Below, piece by piece: positions 12,061 to 63,665 of a stretch of DNA of 64,000 nt. The stretch lies in the sequence record OZ035771.1; one strand, written 5' to 3'. Each line of letters begins with the position of its first letter. The first letter of the stretch is position 1. The notes beneath the pieces were generated by a model. It searched no databases. It saw nothing but the letters and a program-made list of their open reading frames with translations, and was not told the origin of the DNA. This DNA comes from Phapecoctavirus DIJ07P2. A program made the position numbers and the translations under genes.

Positions 12061-12150
12061 CGCGTAGCGATATGTTGAGCACCTTCTCTTAAACGTAAAT
12101 AAAATCAGAAAATTCTTGATTTATTTTAGTTTTTATGTTAATAAACGTTT

Positions 12151-12169
12151 AAATAATAATCATTCTCAT
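12151..12169. promoter_or_regulatory. Fur-box-like 19-mer
   Basis: AAATAATAATCATTCTCAT, 14/19 to Fur consensus. Confidence 0.3.
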
Positions 12170-12328
12170 ATAAATAATAGTCTGCTTGTCATGAGCGGGA
12201 TTAGTTGACAATGTTCCGTCATATGATGAAGTTGCCAAGCCATTGATAAATAAGTGTTTGTGTGATTTATAATCAGGTGGCCCACCTTGTCGCTATGTTG
12301 GCATGAGCCTTGCATAAGTCATTGAATA

Positions 12329-12350
12329 CGAATGATAATTATTCTCATTC
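12329..12350. promoter_or_regulatory. Fur-box-like palindrome
   Basis: CGAATGATAATTATTCTCATTC, near-perfect palindrome, 14/19 to Fur consensus. Confidence 0.35.
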
Positions 12351-12690
12351 GCATGATATTTGGGAATTGTCGCTGCGTGGACCTGACGGCCCGAAAATTC
12401 GCGTTAAGCACTTCTTACGTATACGCCATGATTTTTGCCATATGATATTGATTCTATTAGATATTCTTGCCATTATTGCCATGAAACATGGTGTCCCGAA
12501 ATAATCTCTCCCCGTAGATATTTTGGGTTACTTTTTATACAAGAGTGGGGTGTCAAAAATAATCAGTATATATGGGATAATTGATAGGAATCCCCTATGA
12601 TAATTCGATTGTAATTCCCTAAGATTGATCGTATGATGTTGGTGATTGATGATTGCCATGAAAGATGGCTAACGATGAGAGGAGATTGTC

Positions 12691-25039: not shown

Positions 25040-25690
25040 CTATACCAGACTTTGTAGGTATTTGTCAAGGGCTTCTTGATCACCTTGGCAAACATAGCAA
25101 CGAAAGTCTTTAACAGATGGTACTTTATTCTCATCCCAGTCCCACATTATATTACCTTTGTAACGTGAACTAGGGAAGTCGAAAAATGCTGTATGGGTGA
25201 TGTGGTGTGGACCGCCCCAAACCTCTGTAAAGGTGAACTGCGGATACGCTACCTTCACCGCCTCCATAAACCAAGCTTTACGAATCAAAGCATTGTTGAT
25301 AAAATGCGCGTGACGTTCCATTTCTTCCCAGTTCTTCCACACACTTTTCTCGTCAAGGGAGAATACAAGATCCTCTTCAATATACAAGCCATCTTCGCAT
25401 TCATCAAAATCTGCCTCAAGACCTCCTACAGGTTCGTCGAGTCTAACACCATCAAAAGCAGAATATACCCACCAACCATCTTCCAGTAAGGCTTTGATAG
25501 GGACGAAGCCTTTATCAGCATATTGATCGAATTGTTTGACACGGTGGCTTGTGCAGTCTTCAAACTCACATTCTAAACGATATGCACCTTTTCGACGAGC
25601 CTCAAGACCGTGTGTACTGAAAATAACAACACTTCCTTCACCATCATTACGATCTACTTGATAAGCAACCACTGGTTTTGAATTTGACAT
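25040..25690 (-). CDS. hypothetical protein (216 aa) abutting MTase-like gene
   Basis: track ORF; start overlaps stop of 25690..26373. Confidence 0.5.
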   Translation of the reverse strand: MSNSKPVVAYQVDRNDGEGSVVIFSTHGLEARRKGAYRLECEFEDCTSHRVKQFDQYADKGFVPIKALLEDGWWVYSAFDGVRLDEPVGGLEADFDECEDGLYIEEDLVFSLDEKSVWKNWEEMERHAHFINNALIRKAWFMEAVKVAYPQFTFTEVWGGPHHITHTAFFDFPSSRYKGNIMWDWDENKVPSVKDFRCYVCQGDQEALDKYLQSLV

Positions 25691-26373
25691 TATTTCTCCT
25701 TATCTAGAAGATTGTTAGACAAAAACACTGCACGAGCAAAACCACGTGCGGTTAGTGATCTAAGTTGTTTTGTTTTTGCACTAGCTCCACCTAAGCTTTT
25801 CCAACCCCAGAAGCAGCCTATATGATCTACTGGTTTCTTCACTGGTTGAACAAAACCATTGCCGTGCCAAATACAAGTTTTCTTTGTATACCCATCACGG
25901 GTAGGCATTTTAGGATGAAAGCTTCCTTCCTCTTCAAACAAATACCCACCATACTCATAAGGATCAAAGTAAAAATCTGGTTTACGCCATAAGGTTGAAA
26001 GTTTACCTACTGGGTTCTCAATCATCCAAGGAACATTATATTTGTTACCCAAAGCTTCCACTACACGAATATTAGCTAAAGCTTCATCTAATTCCTCTGT
26101 GCTACGTTCGTGTTTGCTACCACTACCTGCTAACATAGTGCAAGGTGGAAATCCAAAAATAATATCGGGTTTAGGTATTCCATGATCTTCAGGGTTGAAT
26201 GTAGAATCTATCCAAGCATTCACATAGGTTATGTTTGGGTGCTCCATCCTAACCTCGTATTTACCGTGATCCCCTTCATCAGCGTTTACACAAAAACACT
26301 TGTGACCTGCTTCGGCATAACGTAACACCATGATCCCAGATCCGTCAAACATAGACAAAACTGTTTTACTCAT
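25690..26373 (-). CDS. compact C5-cytosine methyltransferase-like protein
   Basis: motif I-like LSMFDGSG, motif IV-like FGFPPC, motif VI-like ENPVG; track ORF trimmed to ATG 26373. Confidence 0.45.
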   Translation of the reverse strand: MSKTVLSMFDGSGIMVLRYAEAGHKCFCVNADEGDHGKYEVRMEHPNITYVNAWIDSTFNPEDHGIPKPDIIFGFPPCTMLAGSGSKHERSTEELDEALANIRVVEALGNKYNVPWMIENPVGKLSTLWRKPDFYFDPYEYGGYLFEEEGSFHPKMPTRDGYTKKTCIWHGNGFVQPVKKPVDHIGCFWGWKSLGGASAKTKQLRSLTARGFARAVFLSNNLLDKEK

Positions 26374-59961: not shown

Positions 59962-60215
59962 TCTAGCCTCCTAAACGCGTCTCTGACGCACTTTTTATAT
60001 ATAAGATGATAAATCACCTTACCTAGTAAGTGAACTTGCTCTACGAGCCTCTTATGAAGCTTATGTTATAGGCTATACTATTGCTACCTATTTAAGCAAG
60101 GTTTTTTGCACAAAGAAAATAATTTTTAATAAAACTCTTGACTTTTGTGTTCGAAGTATGCTACCCTAGAAATCTATTAACGAGCGCAGCGAGTTAAGGT
60201 TTTAGGTTGTTGATG

Positions 60216-60250
60216 TAGTACTCTGTACTCAAGTACTGTACTCCGTACTA
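60216..60250. repeat. GTACT iteron array (5 copies in 35 bp)
   Basis: tAGTACTctGTACTcaAGTACTGTACTccGTACTag. Confidence 0.6.
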
Positions 60251-60297
60251 GATTAATAATTATTAAATATTAATAATAAATAATTATTAGATCTAAC
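60249..60297. repeat. AT-only near-palindrome (~48 bp)
   Basis: TAGATTAATAATTATTAAATATTAATAATAAATAATTATTAGATCTA. Confidence 0.55.
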
Positions 60298-60443
60298 AAA
60301 CAGGTACAGTGTATCAGAACTGGTACGTACAGATCAACTTCTATCAATTAAAAATAAAATAATAAATTATTATAAATAATACTTGATCTATAGATTAGTA
60401 TGAAGTACAGTACGGAACATCTTAACAAGAATGGAGGTGTGCA

Positions 60444-60629
60444 ATGATTAGTGAGAATCCGTGCAAATGGCATCATGTGCCTATTAAAGATTGTATGTCT
60501 TGTAATCCACGTTCTATTTATAACATTGCATCTTATGATGATGACAATGTGTTAGACGATGATGAAGGCTGGGAGGATTTAGATTGGACTGGTTATGAAA
60601 CCAAAAAGGATAAAATTATTCCTAGTTGA
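60444..60629 (+). CDS. hypothetical protein (61 aa)
   Basis: track ORF; GGAGG RBS. Confidence 0.5.
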   Translation: MISENPCKWHHVPIKDCMSCNPRSIYNIASYDDDNVLDDDEGWEDLDWTGYETKKDKIIPS

Positions 60630-63083: not shown

Positions 63084-63160
63084 ACAGCCTTTAGCTCAAC
63101 CTGGTAGAGTGCATCGTTTGGGGCGATGAAGTTAAAAGTTCGAATCTTTTAAGGCTGACC
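63084..63160 (+). tRNA. tRNA-Pro (TGG)
   Basis: C1:G72 acceptor CAGCCTT/AAGGCTG, anticodon arm CATCG-TTTGGGG-CGATG, T-loop TTCGAAT, A73. Confidence 0.75.
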
Positions 63161-63235
63161 AAATTACAATTCCATGCGTCTGACAAAAGGTTAGTCGGTA
63201 TAAGACGTGGGATTTAATACTTATAAGGAGGACTT

Positions 63236-63577
63236 ATGTATAAATGTAGCCATTGTGGTGAAGAAGATCCGCAAAAGTTCTACGGTCATAAGAAATCTAT
63301 TTGTGGTTATTGTCATAATAAGTATACAATAGACTTAGGACAACAGAAAAAGAAGTATGCTCGTGATAAGTTAGGTGGTAAGTGTGTTTCCTGCGGTTAC
63401 GATAAATATCAGGAAGCTTTAGATATACACCATCTTGATCCGACAATAAAAGACCGGAGTTTCGCATCCATGCGTGGGTGGTCGCTTAAGAGGATTGATA
63501 AAGAGATAGAGAACTGCATCTTACTATGTAAGAACTGTCATTCAGCTTTCCATTCTGGTCATGATATTACTTGGTAG
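63236..63577 (+). CDS. HNH endonuclease within tRNA cluster
   Basis: CSHCG...CGYCH...DIHHLDP...CKNCH; AAGGAGG RBS. Confidence 0.75.
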   Translation: MYKCSHCGEEDPQKFYGHKKSICGYCHNKYTIDLGQQKKKYARDKLGGKCVSCGYDKYQEALDIHHLDPTIKDRSFASMRGWSLKRIDKEIENCILLCKNCHSAFHSGHDITW

Positions 63578-63591
63578 TAATACTAATTAAA

Positions 63592-63665
63592 TGTTTCGTA
63601 GTTCAATGGTAGAACCCACGACTGATAATCGTGAGACACAAGTTCGATTCTTGTCGAAACAACCA
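63592..63665 (+). tRNA. tRNA-Ile (GAT)
   Basis: acceptor TGTTTCG/CGAAACA, anticodon arm CACGA-CTGATAA-TCGTG, T-loop TTCGATT, A73. Confidence 0.7.

What the first reader, a model, noticed from the sequence alone, without database searches (positions are those of the whole stretch)
59962..60443. Divergent control region with a GTACT iteron array and AT-only palindrome
Between the first minus-strand gene (start 59961) and the first plus-strand gene (60444) lie five GTACT units in 35 bp (60216-60250), a ~48-bp AT-only near-palindrome (60249-60297), further GTAC pairs (GGTACAG, GGTACGTACAG, GAAGTACAGTACGG) and a second AT block (60340-60380). Iterons flanking AT-rich unwinding elements are the classical architecture of a replication origin; they could instead be operators for a regulator of the two divergent operons.
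Basis: partly seen in the sequence, partly recalled or inferred. Interest (0 to 1): 0.55.

Follow-up and report, generated by a model that had tools for sequence, protein, structure and literature searches.

The report
GTAC-repeat early control region, phAPEC8-like phage
In this phAPEC8-like coliphage, which otherwise avoids the four-letter word GTAC, ten GTACs and the two most easily melted stretches of the genome sit between its early promoters; this is a real, conserved, uncharacterised control element, but whether it is a switch for early genes or a replication start site cannot be settled by computation.

Summary
The window is a Phapecoctavirus (phAPEC8-like) genome. GTAC is depleted 3-4 fold genome-wide, yet 10 of the window's 71 copies lie in 60218-60413. 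The two longest A/T-only runs lie there too, and they are the least stable duplex DNA of a 151-kb relative.

It holds three conserved sigma-70-type promoters: P_L leftward, and P_R1 and P_R2 in tandem rightward. A conserved GCGNAGC hairpin starts the P_R1 transcript. AGATCT motifs and an A/T block upstream of P_R2 are shared by five genera. The five-GTACT array plus the first A/T palindrome is a ~70-bp insertion specific to this genus, inside the P_R1 leader. Another GTAC pair overlaps the -10 of P_R2 in inverted orientation.

The region is not the genome end, not a known RNA family and not a canonical TrpR operator. The repeats do not meet the iteron definition.

Best reading (about 0.38): a protein-binding operator array that modulates rightward early transcription. 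Main rival (about 0.28): a transcription-activated, T4 oriF-like origin. No binding protein was identified and no replication data exist. Interest is moderate.

The parts
59977..59989 (-). Small hairpin (GCGTC-AGA-GACGC) in the leftward leader, just upstream of the ribosome-binding site of the 107-aa gene.
   Evidence: (I13). Partly conserved in Wec188.
60006..60034 (-). P_L, a sigma-70-like leftward promoter (TTCACT-17-TATCAT) for the ~36-kb leftward early/nucleotide-metabolism gene block.
   Evidence: Consensus scan. The -10 block GATGATAAATCACC is conserved. Better -35 boxes occur in relatives: TTGACA-17-TATCAT in phi1_175008 and TTGACT-17-TACCAT in Tr1 (my reading). No transcription-start data exist.
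60138..60167 (+). P_R1, a rightward extended -10 promoter (TTGACT-18-TGcTACCCT). The inferred start is about 60174.
   Evidence: Sequence. TTGAC(T/A)-17/18-TG(c/a)TACCCTA is conserved in five genera of the subfamily. The start position is inferred.
60177..60197 (+). Conserved hairpin TTAA-CGAGCGCAGCGAG-TTAA that contains the GCGNAGC 'mini-hairpin' motif (60184-60190), at the very 5' end of the P_R1 transcript.
   Evidence: Unique in the window and in the 151-kb genome. The core CGAGCG(A/C)AGCGAG is invariant across the related genera, while the flanks vary and stay mostly complementary, though imperfectly in several genera. The DNA fold predicts the stem. The motif is described in PMC13037366.
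60217..60251 (+). Array A: five GTACT units in one orientation, at 7, 8, 5 and 7 bp spacing. It contains two GTACTCYGTACT 12-mers 20 bp apart.
   Evidence: (D3). Nearly invariant in the 10 genus members compared. Absent from Wecvirus, Justusliebigvirus, Tr1 and phi1_175008.
60249..60297 (.). AT1: a near-palindrome whose core 60252-60289 is A/T-only. It is the least stable 40-bp duplex of the genome.
   Evidence: (I3). No substitutions among 10 genus members. Genus-specific.
60289..60301 (+). AGATCTAACAAAC, a block conserved across the subfamily that marks the right edge of the genus-specific insertion.
   Evidence: GATCTAACAGAC is found in muut and Tr1, and related AGATCT motifs in Wec188 and phi1-like phages.
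60303..60316 (+). Site B: GGTACAGTGTATCA.
   Evidence: A homologous block GTACAGAGTATCA / GTACGGAGTATCA is present in phi1_175008 and L028. Lost by a point change in anhysbys.
60322..60332 (+). Site C: GGTACGTACAG, two abutting GTACs.
   Evidence: It lies in the 68-bp stretch (60308-60375) deleted in the deposited genome of phage nieznany.
60346..60381 (.). AT2: an A/T-only block immediately upstream of the P_R2 -35 box (UP-element position).
   Evidence: An A/T block at this position is present in all five genera. No substitutions within the genus, only indels.
60383..60411 (+). P_R2, the second rightward promoter (TTGATC-17-TACAGT). The inferred start is about 60418.
   Evidence: Positionally conserved in relatives: TTGACT-18-TAGAGT, TTGACC-17-TAGTAT and TTGACC-17-TACACT (my reading). 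The scan did not list it because it falls below the 9-of-12 threshold.
60402..60415 (+). Site D: GAAGTACAGTACGG, two GTACT units in inverted orientation relative to array A. It overlaps the -10 box and start region of P_R2.
   Evidence: I1, D4. AGTACAGTAC is the exact reverse complement of GTACTGTACT at 60233-60242.
60433..60446 (+). Ribosome-binding site GGAGG and the ATG of the 61-aa first rightward gene.
   Evidence: The protein belongs to phrog_26411.

Best explanation
The 482-bp gap is the main early-transcription control region of a phAPEC8-like phage. Its conserved frame has five parts: a leftward promoter P_L; a strong rightward promoter P_R1 whose transcript begins with a conserved GNA-loop hairpin; about 240 nt of untranslated leader; an A/T block; and a second rightward promoter P_R2 just before the first small gene and the tRNA cluster.

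In the genus Phapecoctavirus a ~70-bp module was added inside that leader. It consists of five GTACT units followed by a 38-bp A/T-only palindrome. Further GTAC sites lie upstream of P_R2 and over its -10 box.

I propose that the GTAC units are binding sites for a sequence-specific DNA-binding protein, either a phage early or middle protein or a host repressor. Occupying the site over the P_R2 -10 box, together with the oppositely oriented array 170 bp upstream, would repress or time rightward early transcription from P_R2 and block read-through from P_R1. The very flexible A/T-only DNA in between probably forms a loop.

Shown: the sequence anatomy, its conservation, its uniqueness in the genome and the selection against GTAC elsewhere. 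Inferred: promoter activity, protein binding, looping and the direction of the effect.
For: - GTAC is depleted 3-4 fold genome-wide (O/E 0.27-0.35) but ten copies persist here. The array, sites B-C and both A/T blocks vary less than third codon positions of the flanking genes (pi 0.000-0.011 against 0.021-0.042). This points to functional constraint.
- Position. Site D overlaps the -10 box and start of P_R2. Array A lies at about +43 to +77 of P_R1. Sites B and C lie about 85-115 bp upstream of the P_R2 start. This is the layout of a primary operator with auxiliary operators.
- GTACT units are all forward in array A and reversed in site D, and 10 bp match exactly (I1 and D4).
- GTAC-bearing blocks at the positions of site B and of the P_R2 -10 box are also present in the phi1_175008-like genus. 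The motif therefore predates the array.
- Single units are expendable in deposited genomes, as in redundant operator arrays: phAPEC8 lacks unit 3, anhysbys lacks site B and nieznany lacks site C.
- The module is genus-specific inside an otherwise conserved promoter frame. This fits regulatory tinkering better than a change of origin.
- Tandem short repeats in both orientations bound by small repressors have precedent in the omega heptads of pSM19035 (PMC9499535). The E. coli mtr operator GTACTCGTGTACTGGTACAGTG looks alike.
Against: - No candidate binding protein was identified. The flanking small proteins have no Pfam domain, belong to PHROGs of unknown function, and are shared with Wecvirus, which lacks the array.
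- No second GTAC cluster exists at any other promoter of the 151-kb genome, so there is no regulon.
- The array sits downstream of P_R1 rather than over a promoter core.
- Unit spacing is irregular (7, 8, 5, 7 bp).
- The 171-bp distance between the matching 10-mers is not an integral number of helical turns.
- The model gives the perfectly conserved A/T-only palindrome only a passive role.
- Promoters are inferred from consensus and conservation only.
Confidence: 0.38

Rival explanations
1. Transcription-activated replication origin, as in T4 oriF/oriG or the T7 primary origin. Host RNA polymerase starting at P_R1 transcribes into the A/T-only unwinding element. The G-rich, C-poor start of the transcript forms a persistent R-loop that primes leading-strand synthesis. 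The displaced strand, with its GCGCAGC mini-hairpin and GTAC palindromes, loads the phage gp4-like primase-helicase. The GTACT array would be a genus-specific accessory or loading site.
For: - The region holds the two least stable 40-bp windows (-33.6 and -35.8 kcal/mol against a genome mean of -50.2, sd 3.3) and the least stable 200-bp window of the 151-kb genome.
- It holds two of the three A/T-only runs of 25 nt or more.
- The P_R1 start lies about 78 nt upstream of AT1.
- P_R1 followed by an A/T block is conserved in five genera.
- The first 34 nt after the hairpin have 12 G and 3 C.
- The GTAC cluster and the hairpin are each unique in the genome.
- The site is a point of transcriptional divergence with a local minimum of cumulative GC skew, as at T4 oriE, oriF and oriG (PMC3016281).
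- GCGNAGC mini-hairpins occur at priming sites and at N4 promoters (PMC13037366).
- The phage encodes a primase/helicase and a DNA polymerase, and no initiator is annotated.
Against: - Skew extremes coincide with every switch of gene orientation, and the global minimum is at the other divergent junction (131 kb), which is a plain 118-bp promoter gap.
- Array A and AT1 are missing from sister genera.
- In other genera the P_R1-plus-hairpin module occurs a second time directly upstream of an ordinary gene with no A/T block (L025, L029). It therefore behaves as a promoter module.
- AT2 sits exactly where a promoter UP element would.
- Part of the region (60308-60375, including half of AT2) is deleted in the deposited genome of nieznany.
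- There are no replication data of any kind.
Confidence: 0.28
2. RNA-level element. In the P_R1 read-through transcript the GUACU array pairs with the inverted GUAC pair just upstream of the ribosome-binding site. This gives a 17-bp helix that encloses the A/U-rich segment. It could be an RNase III processing site or a stability or translation determinant that distinguishes P_R1 transcripts from P_R2 transcripts.
For: - The leader's minimum free energy is -59 kcal/mol against -46.5 (sd 4.2) for shuffles, z about -2.9, and the fold includes the long-range A-D helix.
- Duplex energy between array A and the P_R2 region is -25.9 kcal/mol, P about 0.01.
- Comparable upstream-to-P_R2 complementarity is seen in Tr1 (P 0.02 or less) and L028 (P 0.05-0.09).
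- The two arms are annotated as repeat_region in the tuntematon and anhysbys records.
Against: - There is no significant duplex in Wec188, muut or phi1_175008 (P 0.25-0.52), and leader z-scores there are only -0.6 to -1.8.
- The only substitution inside the helix (phAPEC8, T60234C) is not compensated.
- No Rfam family matches.
- The helix does not cover the ribosome-binding site.
- Much of the cross-genus complementarity comes from the shared AGATCT palindrome.
Confidence: 0.12
3. No specific function. The array would be an imperfect heptamer microsatellite produced by slippage, and the A/T palindrome a local inverted duplication, both tolerated in an untranslated leader.
For: - Heptad arrays of arbitrary 5-mers are common in viral contigs. 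GTACT gave 91 loci; controls gave 31 (CATGT) and at least 120 (GTCAT).
- Copy number or unit content varies in dw-ec and phAPEC8.
- Each GTAC site shows local duplication.
Against: - Persistence of ten GTACs in a genome that has purged about 70% of them.
- Near-invariance of the array and zero substitutions in 89 nt of A/T blocks, while flanking third codon positions vary.
- Even counting founders only, four independent GTAC sites in 200 bp has genome-wide P of about 0.03.
- Inverted placement over a promoter -10 box.
Confidence: 0.1
4. Packaging signal or physical genome end (pac or terminal-repeat region).
For: - Repeat clusters flanking a cleavage region occur at some pac sites (P1 pac, from my own knowledge).
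- Several database records start within a few kb of this region, and one (nieznany) starts inside the adjacent gene.
Against: - The 328-bp direct terminal repeat reported for Schickermooser (PMC6563267) is present at both ends of that record and maps to window 12078-12406, 48 kb away.
- Record start points in this genus are inconsistent, so they are arbitrary.
Confidence: 0.02

Closest known systems
T4 oriF (uvsY) and oriG (34) R-loop origins; the T7 primary origin is similar
   Same: A promoter reads into an A+T-rich unwinding element within about 100 bp. The location is at a switch of transcription direction and nucleotide skew. No dedicated initiator protein is needed (PMC3016281). Here P_R1 lies about 78 nt before a 38-bp A/T-only block that is the least stable duplex of the genome.
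   Different: No experimental evidence of initiation exists here. The promoter looks like a plain host sigma-70 early promoter rather than a MotA or T7 promoter. The A/T element nearest the promoter and the GTACT array are confined to one genus. T4 oriF and oriG have no repeat array.
Iteron origins (lambda ori, P1 oriR, plasmid R6K gamma, T4 oriE 12-nt repeats)
   Same: A cluster of direct repeats lies next to an A/T-rich segment, once per genome.
   Different: Iterons are 12-22 bp, evenly spaced in helical phase, and matched by an adjacent initiator gene. Here the units are 5 bp at 5-8 bp spacing, and no Rep/O-like gene was found.
Omega (ParB) heptad arrays of pSM19035 and other ribbon-helix-helix operators (MetJ, ParG)
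   Same: Several short units of 7-8 bp period occur in direct and inverted orientation at promoters. Individual units are redundant (PMC9499535).
   Different: Omega needs contiguous heptads. Here the spacing is 7, 8, 5, 7 bp and the inverted units are 170 bp away. No ribbon-helix-helix gene was identified.
E. coli Trp repressor operators, especially mtr (GTACTCGTGTACTGGTACAGTG)
   Same: The GTACT half-site is repeated on one strand. GGTACAGTG is shared with site B and CTGGTAC with site C.
   Different: No GNACT-N8-AGTNC inverted pair exists in the phage region; the best candidate has N9. BLAST of the array against 5,426 E. coli genomes finds nothing.
GCGNAGC DNA mini-hairpins at priming sites (G4, RSF1010 ssiA) and N4 virion RNA polymerase promoters
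   Same: GCGCAGC with complementary flanks lies at 60177-60197, and the loop N varies among relatives.
   Different: Here it lies at about +4 to +24 of a sigma-70-type promoter. The phage has no annotated N4-like polymerase. Its function is unknown.

Membership tests
Iteron-type replication origin | Three or more direct repeats of a 12-22 bp initiator site, evenly spaced in helical phase | tested here: not met
   The units are GTACT 5-mers at 7, 8, 5 and 7 bp. Only one pair of 12-mers (GTACTCYGTACT) is 20 bp apart. TRF does not call the array.
Iteron-type replication origin | Adjacent A/T-rich unwinding element | tested here: met
   The 38-nt A/T-only block abuts the array and is the least stable 40-bp window of the genome.
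Iteron-type replication origin | Cognate initiator gene nearby | tested here: inconclusive
   The eight neighbouring small proteins tested have no Pfam hit; the five of them also scanned against PHROGs fall only in families of unknown function. No initiator is annotated in the 151-kb relative. Many ORFs remain uncharacterised.
Iteron-type replication origin | Replication starts here | not testable with these tools
   Needs marker-frequency analysis, 2D gels or a plasmid-amplification assay.
Promoter-plus-unwinding-element (R-loop) origin, T4 oriF/oriG type | Promoter directed into an A+T-rich unwinding element within about 100 bp | tested here: met
   The P_R1 -10 box is at 60162-67 and AT1 starts at 60252. 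The promoter is inferred from conservation in five genera.
Promoter-plus-unwinding-element (R-loop) origin, T4 oriF/oriG type | Persistent RNA-DNA hybrid used as primer | not testable with these tools
   Only a G-rich, C-poor leader start was seen (12 G, 3 C).
Promoter-plus-unwinding-element (R-loop) origin, T4 oriF/oriG type | Element shared by relatives that have the same replication genes | tested here: inconclusive
   P_R1, the hairpin and AT2 are shared. AT1 and the array are not.
Repressor operator array (ribbon-helix-helix / omega-like) | Contiguous short repeats, in either orientation, overlapping a promoter core | tested here: inconclusive
   Site D overlaps the P_R2 -10 box. Array A is not contiguous heptads and lies downstream of P_R1.
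Repressor operator array (ribbon-helix-helix / omega-like) | Cognate small DNA-binding protein | tested here: inconclusive
   None was recognised among the flanking proteins. The full proteome was not scanned.
E. coli TrpR operator | Inverted half-sites GNACT-N8-AGTNC | tested here: not met
   The closest case is GTACT(60218)-N9-AGTAC(60232). No N8 pair exists (read directly). The mtr operator does fit GTACT-N8-GGTAC.
Structured RNA leader or known RNA family | Match to a curated family, or covariation supporting a fold | tested here: not met
   There is no Rfam match better than E=2. The single substitution in the helix is uncompensated. Duplex significance is mixed across genera.
Genome terminus / packaging site | Coincides with the terminal repeat | tested here: not met
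   The terminal repeat maps to window 12078-12406.
Restriction-site avoidance (for the genome-wide GTAC deficit) | Palindrome depleted relative to Markov expectation, differently in related phages | tested here: met
   GTAC O/E is 0.27-0.33 here, 0.61-0.63 in Wec188 and 0.71-0.75 in muut. GGCC and CCGG are also depleted. Wec188 has no CTAG at all in 50 kb.

The most novel reading that the evidence does not exclude
The region is the phage's primary replication origin, of a transcription-activated type not yet described for the rV5/phAPEC8-like myoviruses. A host-polymerase early promoter, whose transcript starts with a conserved GNA mini-hairpin, drives R-loop formation in an A/T-only palindrome. 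The GTAC units, purged from the rest of the genome, act as the loading or recognition sites for the phage replisome (or a methylation-sensitive licensing mark).
Probability: 0.22. Interest if true: 0.65.

Novelty: new variant of a known kind. Interest (0 to 1): 0.42.

Why it matters
phAPEC8-like phages (Stephanstirmvirinae) are frequently isolated and proposed for therapy. In my searches of the open-access paper collection I found no description of their early regulation or their replication origin.

This work pins down a 300-bp element with exact coordinates, three candidate promoters and a short list of mutually exclusive predictions. The link between genome-wide GTAC purging and one protected GTAC cluster gives a simple handle for experiments: mutate the GTACs, or delete the 70-bp insertion.

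If the element is an origin, it would extend the T4/T7 promoter-plus-unwinding-element principle to another large phage group. If it is an operator array, it would reveal a genus-specific layer of early-gene timing, possibly read by a host repressor.

Tried and rejected
1. Genome end or pac site: rejected. The 328-bp terminal repeat maps 48 kb away.

2. GC skew as origin evidence: uninformative. Minima and maxima coincide with all four switches of gene orientation, and the global minimum is elsewhere.

3. Phage C5-methyltransferase (window 25690-26373, phrog_757) as a GTAC-specific partner: rejected. The protein is identical in BI-EHEC, 93% identical in Wec188 (which lacks the cluster), and common in T1-like phages.

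4. A widespread 'GTACT heptad operator' family: rejected. The pattern found 91 IMG/VR loci, but control 5-mers gave 31 and at least 120. Heptamer microsatellites are therefore generic.

5. TrpR operator: the half-site spacing test failed, although the mtr operator looks similar.

6. LexA, FadR, DgoR, IHF and Fur look-alikes were read by eye against consensus sequences recalled from memory. None fits fully, and I did not pursue them.

7. Rfam: no family.

8. Conserved long-range RNA helix across genera: mixed statistics, no covariation.

9. Searching for more divergent relatives. The one metagenome scan returned only two further Phapecoctavirus copies (array identical to the window), one Wecvirus, and two unrelated GC-rich contigs with an exact 21-nt match that may be chance. 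The first flanking proteins gave syntenic loci in Justusliebigvirus, Tr1 and phi1_175008, but a Seunavirus hit was not syntenic.

10. Literature: I found no paper on origin, promoters or transcriptome of this genus.
Full report
IDENTITY AND CONTEXT

The window is 98-99% identical to Phapecoctavirus genomes (phAPEC8-like myoviruses, subfamily Stephanstirmvirinae) such as DIJ07P1 and Schickermooser. In the 151-kb Schickermooser genome the region lies at 54.5-55.0 kb. To its left is a ~36-kb leftward block of small early genes and nucleotide-metabolism genes. To its right is a rightward block: three small genes, the tRNA cluster, then terminase and structural genes.

The genome has four nearly equal orientation blocks, with divergent junctions at 54.7 and 130.4 kb and convergent ones at 18.4 and 95.1 kb. 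The 328-bp direct terminal repeat reported for Schickermooser (PMC6563267) maps to window 12078-12406. The finding is therefore not at the physical genome end.

THE OBSERVATION

- GTAC occurs 71 times in 64 kb, against 224 expected from composition and 180 from a Markov model. Ten of these lie in 60218-60413.
- Dinucleotide shuffles never give more than 5 per 200 bp, and Poisson P is about 1e-14. Collapsing each local tandem run to one 'founder' still gives four sites in 200 bp, genome-wide P about 0.03.
- In the whole 151-kb relative this is the only cluster of this size. The next largest (6) lies inside a dTDP-glucose dehydratase gene.
- The A/T-only runs 60252-60289 (38 nt) and 60346-60381 (36 nt) are the two longest in the window.
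- By nearest-neighbour energies, the corresponding positions in the relative are the two least stable 40-bp windows of the genome, about 5 and 4.4 sd from the mean. Together they form the least stable 200-bp window, about 4.5 sd.

ANATOMY FROM COMPARISON WITH FIVE GENERA

The homologous divergent gaps were compared in Wecvirus phiWec188, Justusliebigvirus muut, Citrobacter phage Tr1, Klebsiella phage phi1_175008 and several IMG/VR relatives. They share a common frame:
- P_L, with -35 and -10 boxes at 60034-60006 on the minus strand.
- P_R1, TTGACT-18-TGcTACCCT at 60138-60167.
- An invariant core CGAGCG(A/C)AGCGAG whose flanks differ but stay mostly complementary, though imperfectly in several genera. 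This gives a hairpin at the first nucleotides of the P_R1 transcript that contains the GCGNAGC mini-hairpin motif.
- A G-rich, C-poor stretch.
- AGATCT-type motifs, for example AGATCTAACA(A/G)AC.
- An A/T block.
- P_R2, TTGATC-17-TACAGT at 60383-60411 here and equivalent boxes in the others, followed by the ribosome-binding site and first gene.

These promoters are inferred from consensus and phylogenetic conservation. No transcription-start data exist.

Against this frame, array A plus AT1 is a ~70-bp insertion specific to Phapecoctavirus. It lies between the conserved TTAAGGTnTTAGGT and TTAGATCTAACA blocks. Two other GTAC-bearing blocks are also present in the phi1_175008-like genus: site B (GTACAGnGTATCA) and the G-TACAGT/TACACT at the P_R2 -10 box.

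GTACT units are all forward in array A. They are reversed in site D, which overlaps the -10 box of P_R2. GTACTGTACT (60233-42) and AGTACAGTAC (60404-13) are exact reverse complements.

CONSTRAINT AND VARIATION

Among ten genus members there are no substitutions in AT1 or AT2. Diversity is pi 0.011 in the array and 0.010 in sites B-C. Third codon positions of the flanking genes show 0.021-0.042.

Individual sites are expendable in deposited genomes:
- phAPEC8 lacks the third unit.
- anhysbys lacks site B.
- nieznany lacks 60308-60375, which includes site C and half of AT2.
- dw-ec lacks 13 nt of the array, though that record is of doubtful quality.

WHY GTAC IS RARE ELSEWHERE

GTAC O/E is 0.27-0.33 in Phapecoctavirus, 0.61-0.63 in Wec188 and 0.71-0.75 in muut. 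GGCC and CCGG are low in all three, and Wec188 has no CTAG at all in 50 kb. This genus-by-genus purging of 4-bp palindromes is the signature of restriction avoidance.

In the BI-EHEC record, more than half of the GTAC sites compared read ATAC or GTAT; the first-position G reads A at 19 of 44 sites. This is six times the background mismatch rate. Eight of 14 coding changes would be non-synonymous. I read this as systematic base-calling error at a modified GTAC, which hints that GTAC-specific methylation exists in some hosts. This is an inference, not a demonstration.

The phage's own C5-methyltransferase is identical in BI-EHEC and nearly so in Wec188, so it is not tied to the cluster. Ten GTACs that survive such purging argue for function.

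TESTS OF SPECIFIC IDENTITIES

- Iterons: the definition is not met. The units are 5-mers, the spacing is irregular, TRF is silent and no initiator gene was found.
- Skew: the local minimum here is matched by a deeper one at the other divergent junction, which is a plain 118-bp promoter gap.
- TrpR: the mtr operator, checked in E. coli K-12, reads GTACTCGTGTACTGGTACAGTG and resembles the array and sites B and C. But the defining GNACT-N8-AGTNC pair is absent from the phage (best candidate N9), and BLAST to E. coli finds nothing.
- RNA: no Rfam family matches. The leader folds better than shuffles (z about -2.9) through a 17-bp A-D helix. However, cross-genus support is mixed and the one substitution in the helix is uncompensated.
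- GTACT heptad arrays in other viral contigs turned out to be ordinary heptamer microsatellites, because control motifs give as many or more.

MECHANISM

I favour (0.38) a protein-binding operator array. A site over the -10 box of P_R2 would be paired with an oppositely oriented multi-unit array 170 bp upstream, with auxiliary sites between them. The sites are separated by exceptionally flexible A/T-only DNA that could loop. The net effect would be control of rightward early transcription (small genes plus tRNAs) and of read-through from P_R1. Position, orientation, redundancy, genus-specific gain within a conserved promoter frame, and precedent (omega heptads, PMC9499535; mtr/TrpR) support this. 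The missing regulator, the uniqueness of the cluster and the strictly conserved palindrome count against it.

The main rival (0.28) is a transcription-activated origin of the T4 oriF/oriG kind: a promoter plus an A+T-rich unwinding element at a transcription divergence (PMC3016281). It explains the extreme meltability, the uniqueness, the G-rich leader and the mini-hairpin. It is weakened by three facts: the array-AT1 module is absent from sister genera, a second P_R1-hairpin module occurs upstream of ordinary genes in relatives, and the skew gives no independent support.

The two readings are not exclusive. An RNA-level role (0.12) and neutral repeats (0.10) remain possible.

VERDICT

This is a real, statistically robust, genus-conserved and undescribed cis-element cluster. 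Its kind (operator array or promoter-driven origin) is known, but its composition is new. Interest is moderate. The experiments listed under next steps would decide quickly.

Noticed in passing
window 60138-60197; L003, L010-L012, L017, L025, L028, L029, L036; L013-L056: A promoter-plus-hairpin module (TTGAC-17/18-TGnTACCCTA, about 12 nt, then CGAGCG[N]AGCGAG with mostly complementary flanks) is conserved across Stephanstirmvirinae genera and occurs twice per genome in some. The same TACCCTA...CGAGCGAAGCGAG combination occurs as two divergent copies about 100 bp apart just upstream of the terminase gene in many unrelated marine viral contigs, often near contig ends. By my rough estimate about 13 hits could be chance, but the marine family is clearly real.
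   Followed up: partly
L063 and L058 (BI-EHEC, OL505078.1) against window 14000-61000: In this record more than half of the GTAC sites compared read ATAC or GTAT (first-position G to A at 19 of 44). This is six times the background mismatch rate, and 8 of 14 coding changes would be non-synonymous. It looks like systematic base-calling error at a modified GTAC, which suggests GTAC methylation of virion DNA in that host.
   Followed up: partly
L314 (phiWec188, 70-120 kb): There is not a single CTAG in 50 kb, where about 100 or more are expected. Even the P_R1 start region reads CTAA where the window has CTAG. This is complete purging of one 4-bp palindrome in the sister genus.
   Followed up: no
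window 25690-26373 (minus strand): A 227-aa C5-cytosine methyltransferase-like protein carries the FDGSG, PPC and ENP motifs, matches phrog_757 and is weakly similar to M.HaeIII. Homologues are common in T1-like phages. Its specificity is unknown. Relatives also annotate an N6-adenine methyltransferase next to the DNA polymerase (Schickermooser 100304-101098).
   Followed up: partly
window 63236-63577, between tRNA-Pro (63085-63161) and tRNA-Ile (63592-63665): A 113-aa ORF with HNH-like cysteine and histidine motifs (my reading, not scanned) is inserted in the tRNA cluster. In Schickermooser, tuntematon and ASO2A the two tRNAs are adjacent. It is probably a mobile homing endonuclease.
   Followed up: no
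window 12078-12406: This is the homologue of the 328-bp direct terminal repeat of Schickermooser, so the window spans the physical genome end. That segment is also among the least stable duplex regions at the 60-100 bp scale.
   Followed up: partly
window 60383-60398: Many genus members (six of the ten aligned) carry a perfect 12-bp palindrome GATCTATAGATC, with two Dam sites, overlapping the -35 box and spacer of P_R2. The window has GATCTATAGATT. AGATCT or GATC motifs recur two to four times in this gap in every genus, so there may be a conserved protein site or Dam-sensitive element.
   Followed up: partly
window 60193-60203 (linker between the hairpin and the array): The linker shows short duplications in some genus members: TTAAGGT in Ro121lw and AAGGTTTTA in anhysbys. 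It also has the highest substitution diversity of the gap (pi 0.044). It is therefore an unconstrained spacer between constrained blocks.
   Followed up: no
Schickermooser whole genome (L064-L066): Gene orientation divides the genome into four blocks of 35-40 kb, with two divergent and two convergent junctions roughly opposite each other. Cumulative GC skew follows these exactly.
   Followed up: partly
L068 and L071 (metagenome contigs): The exact 21-nt string AACGAGCGCAGCGAGTTAAGG also occurs in two unrelated GC-rich contigs, one of them next to a long perfect palindrome. This may be chance (about 0.5 expected by my estimate) or a wider hairpin motif.
   Followed up: no
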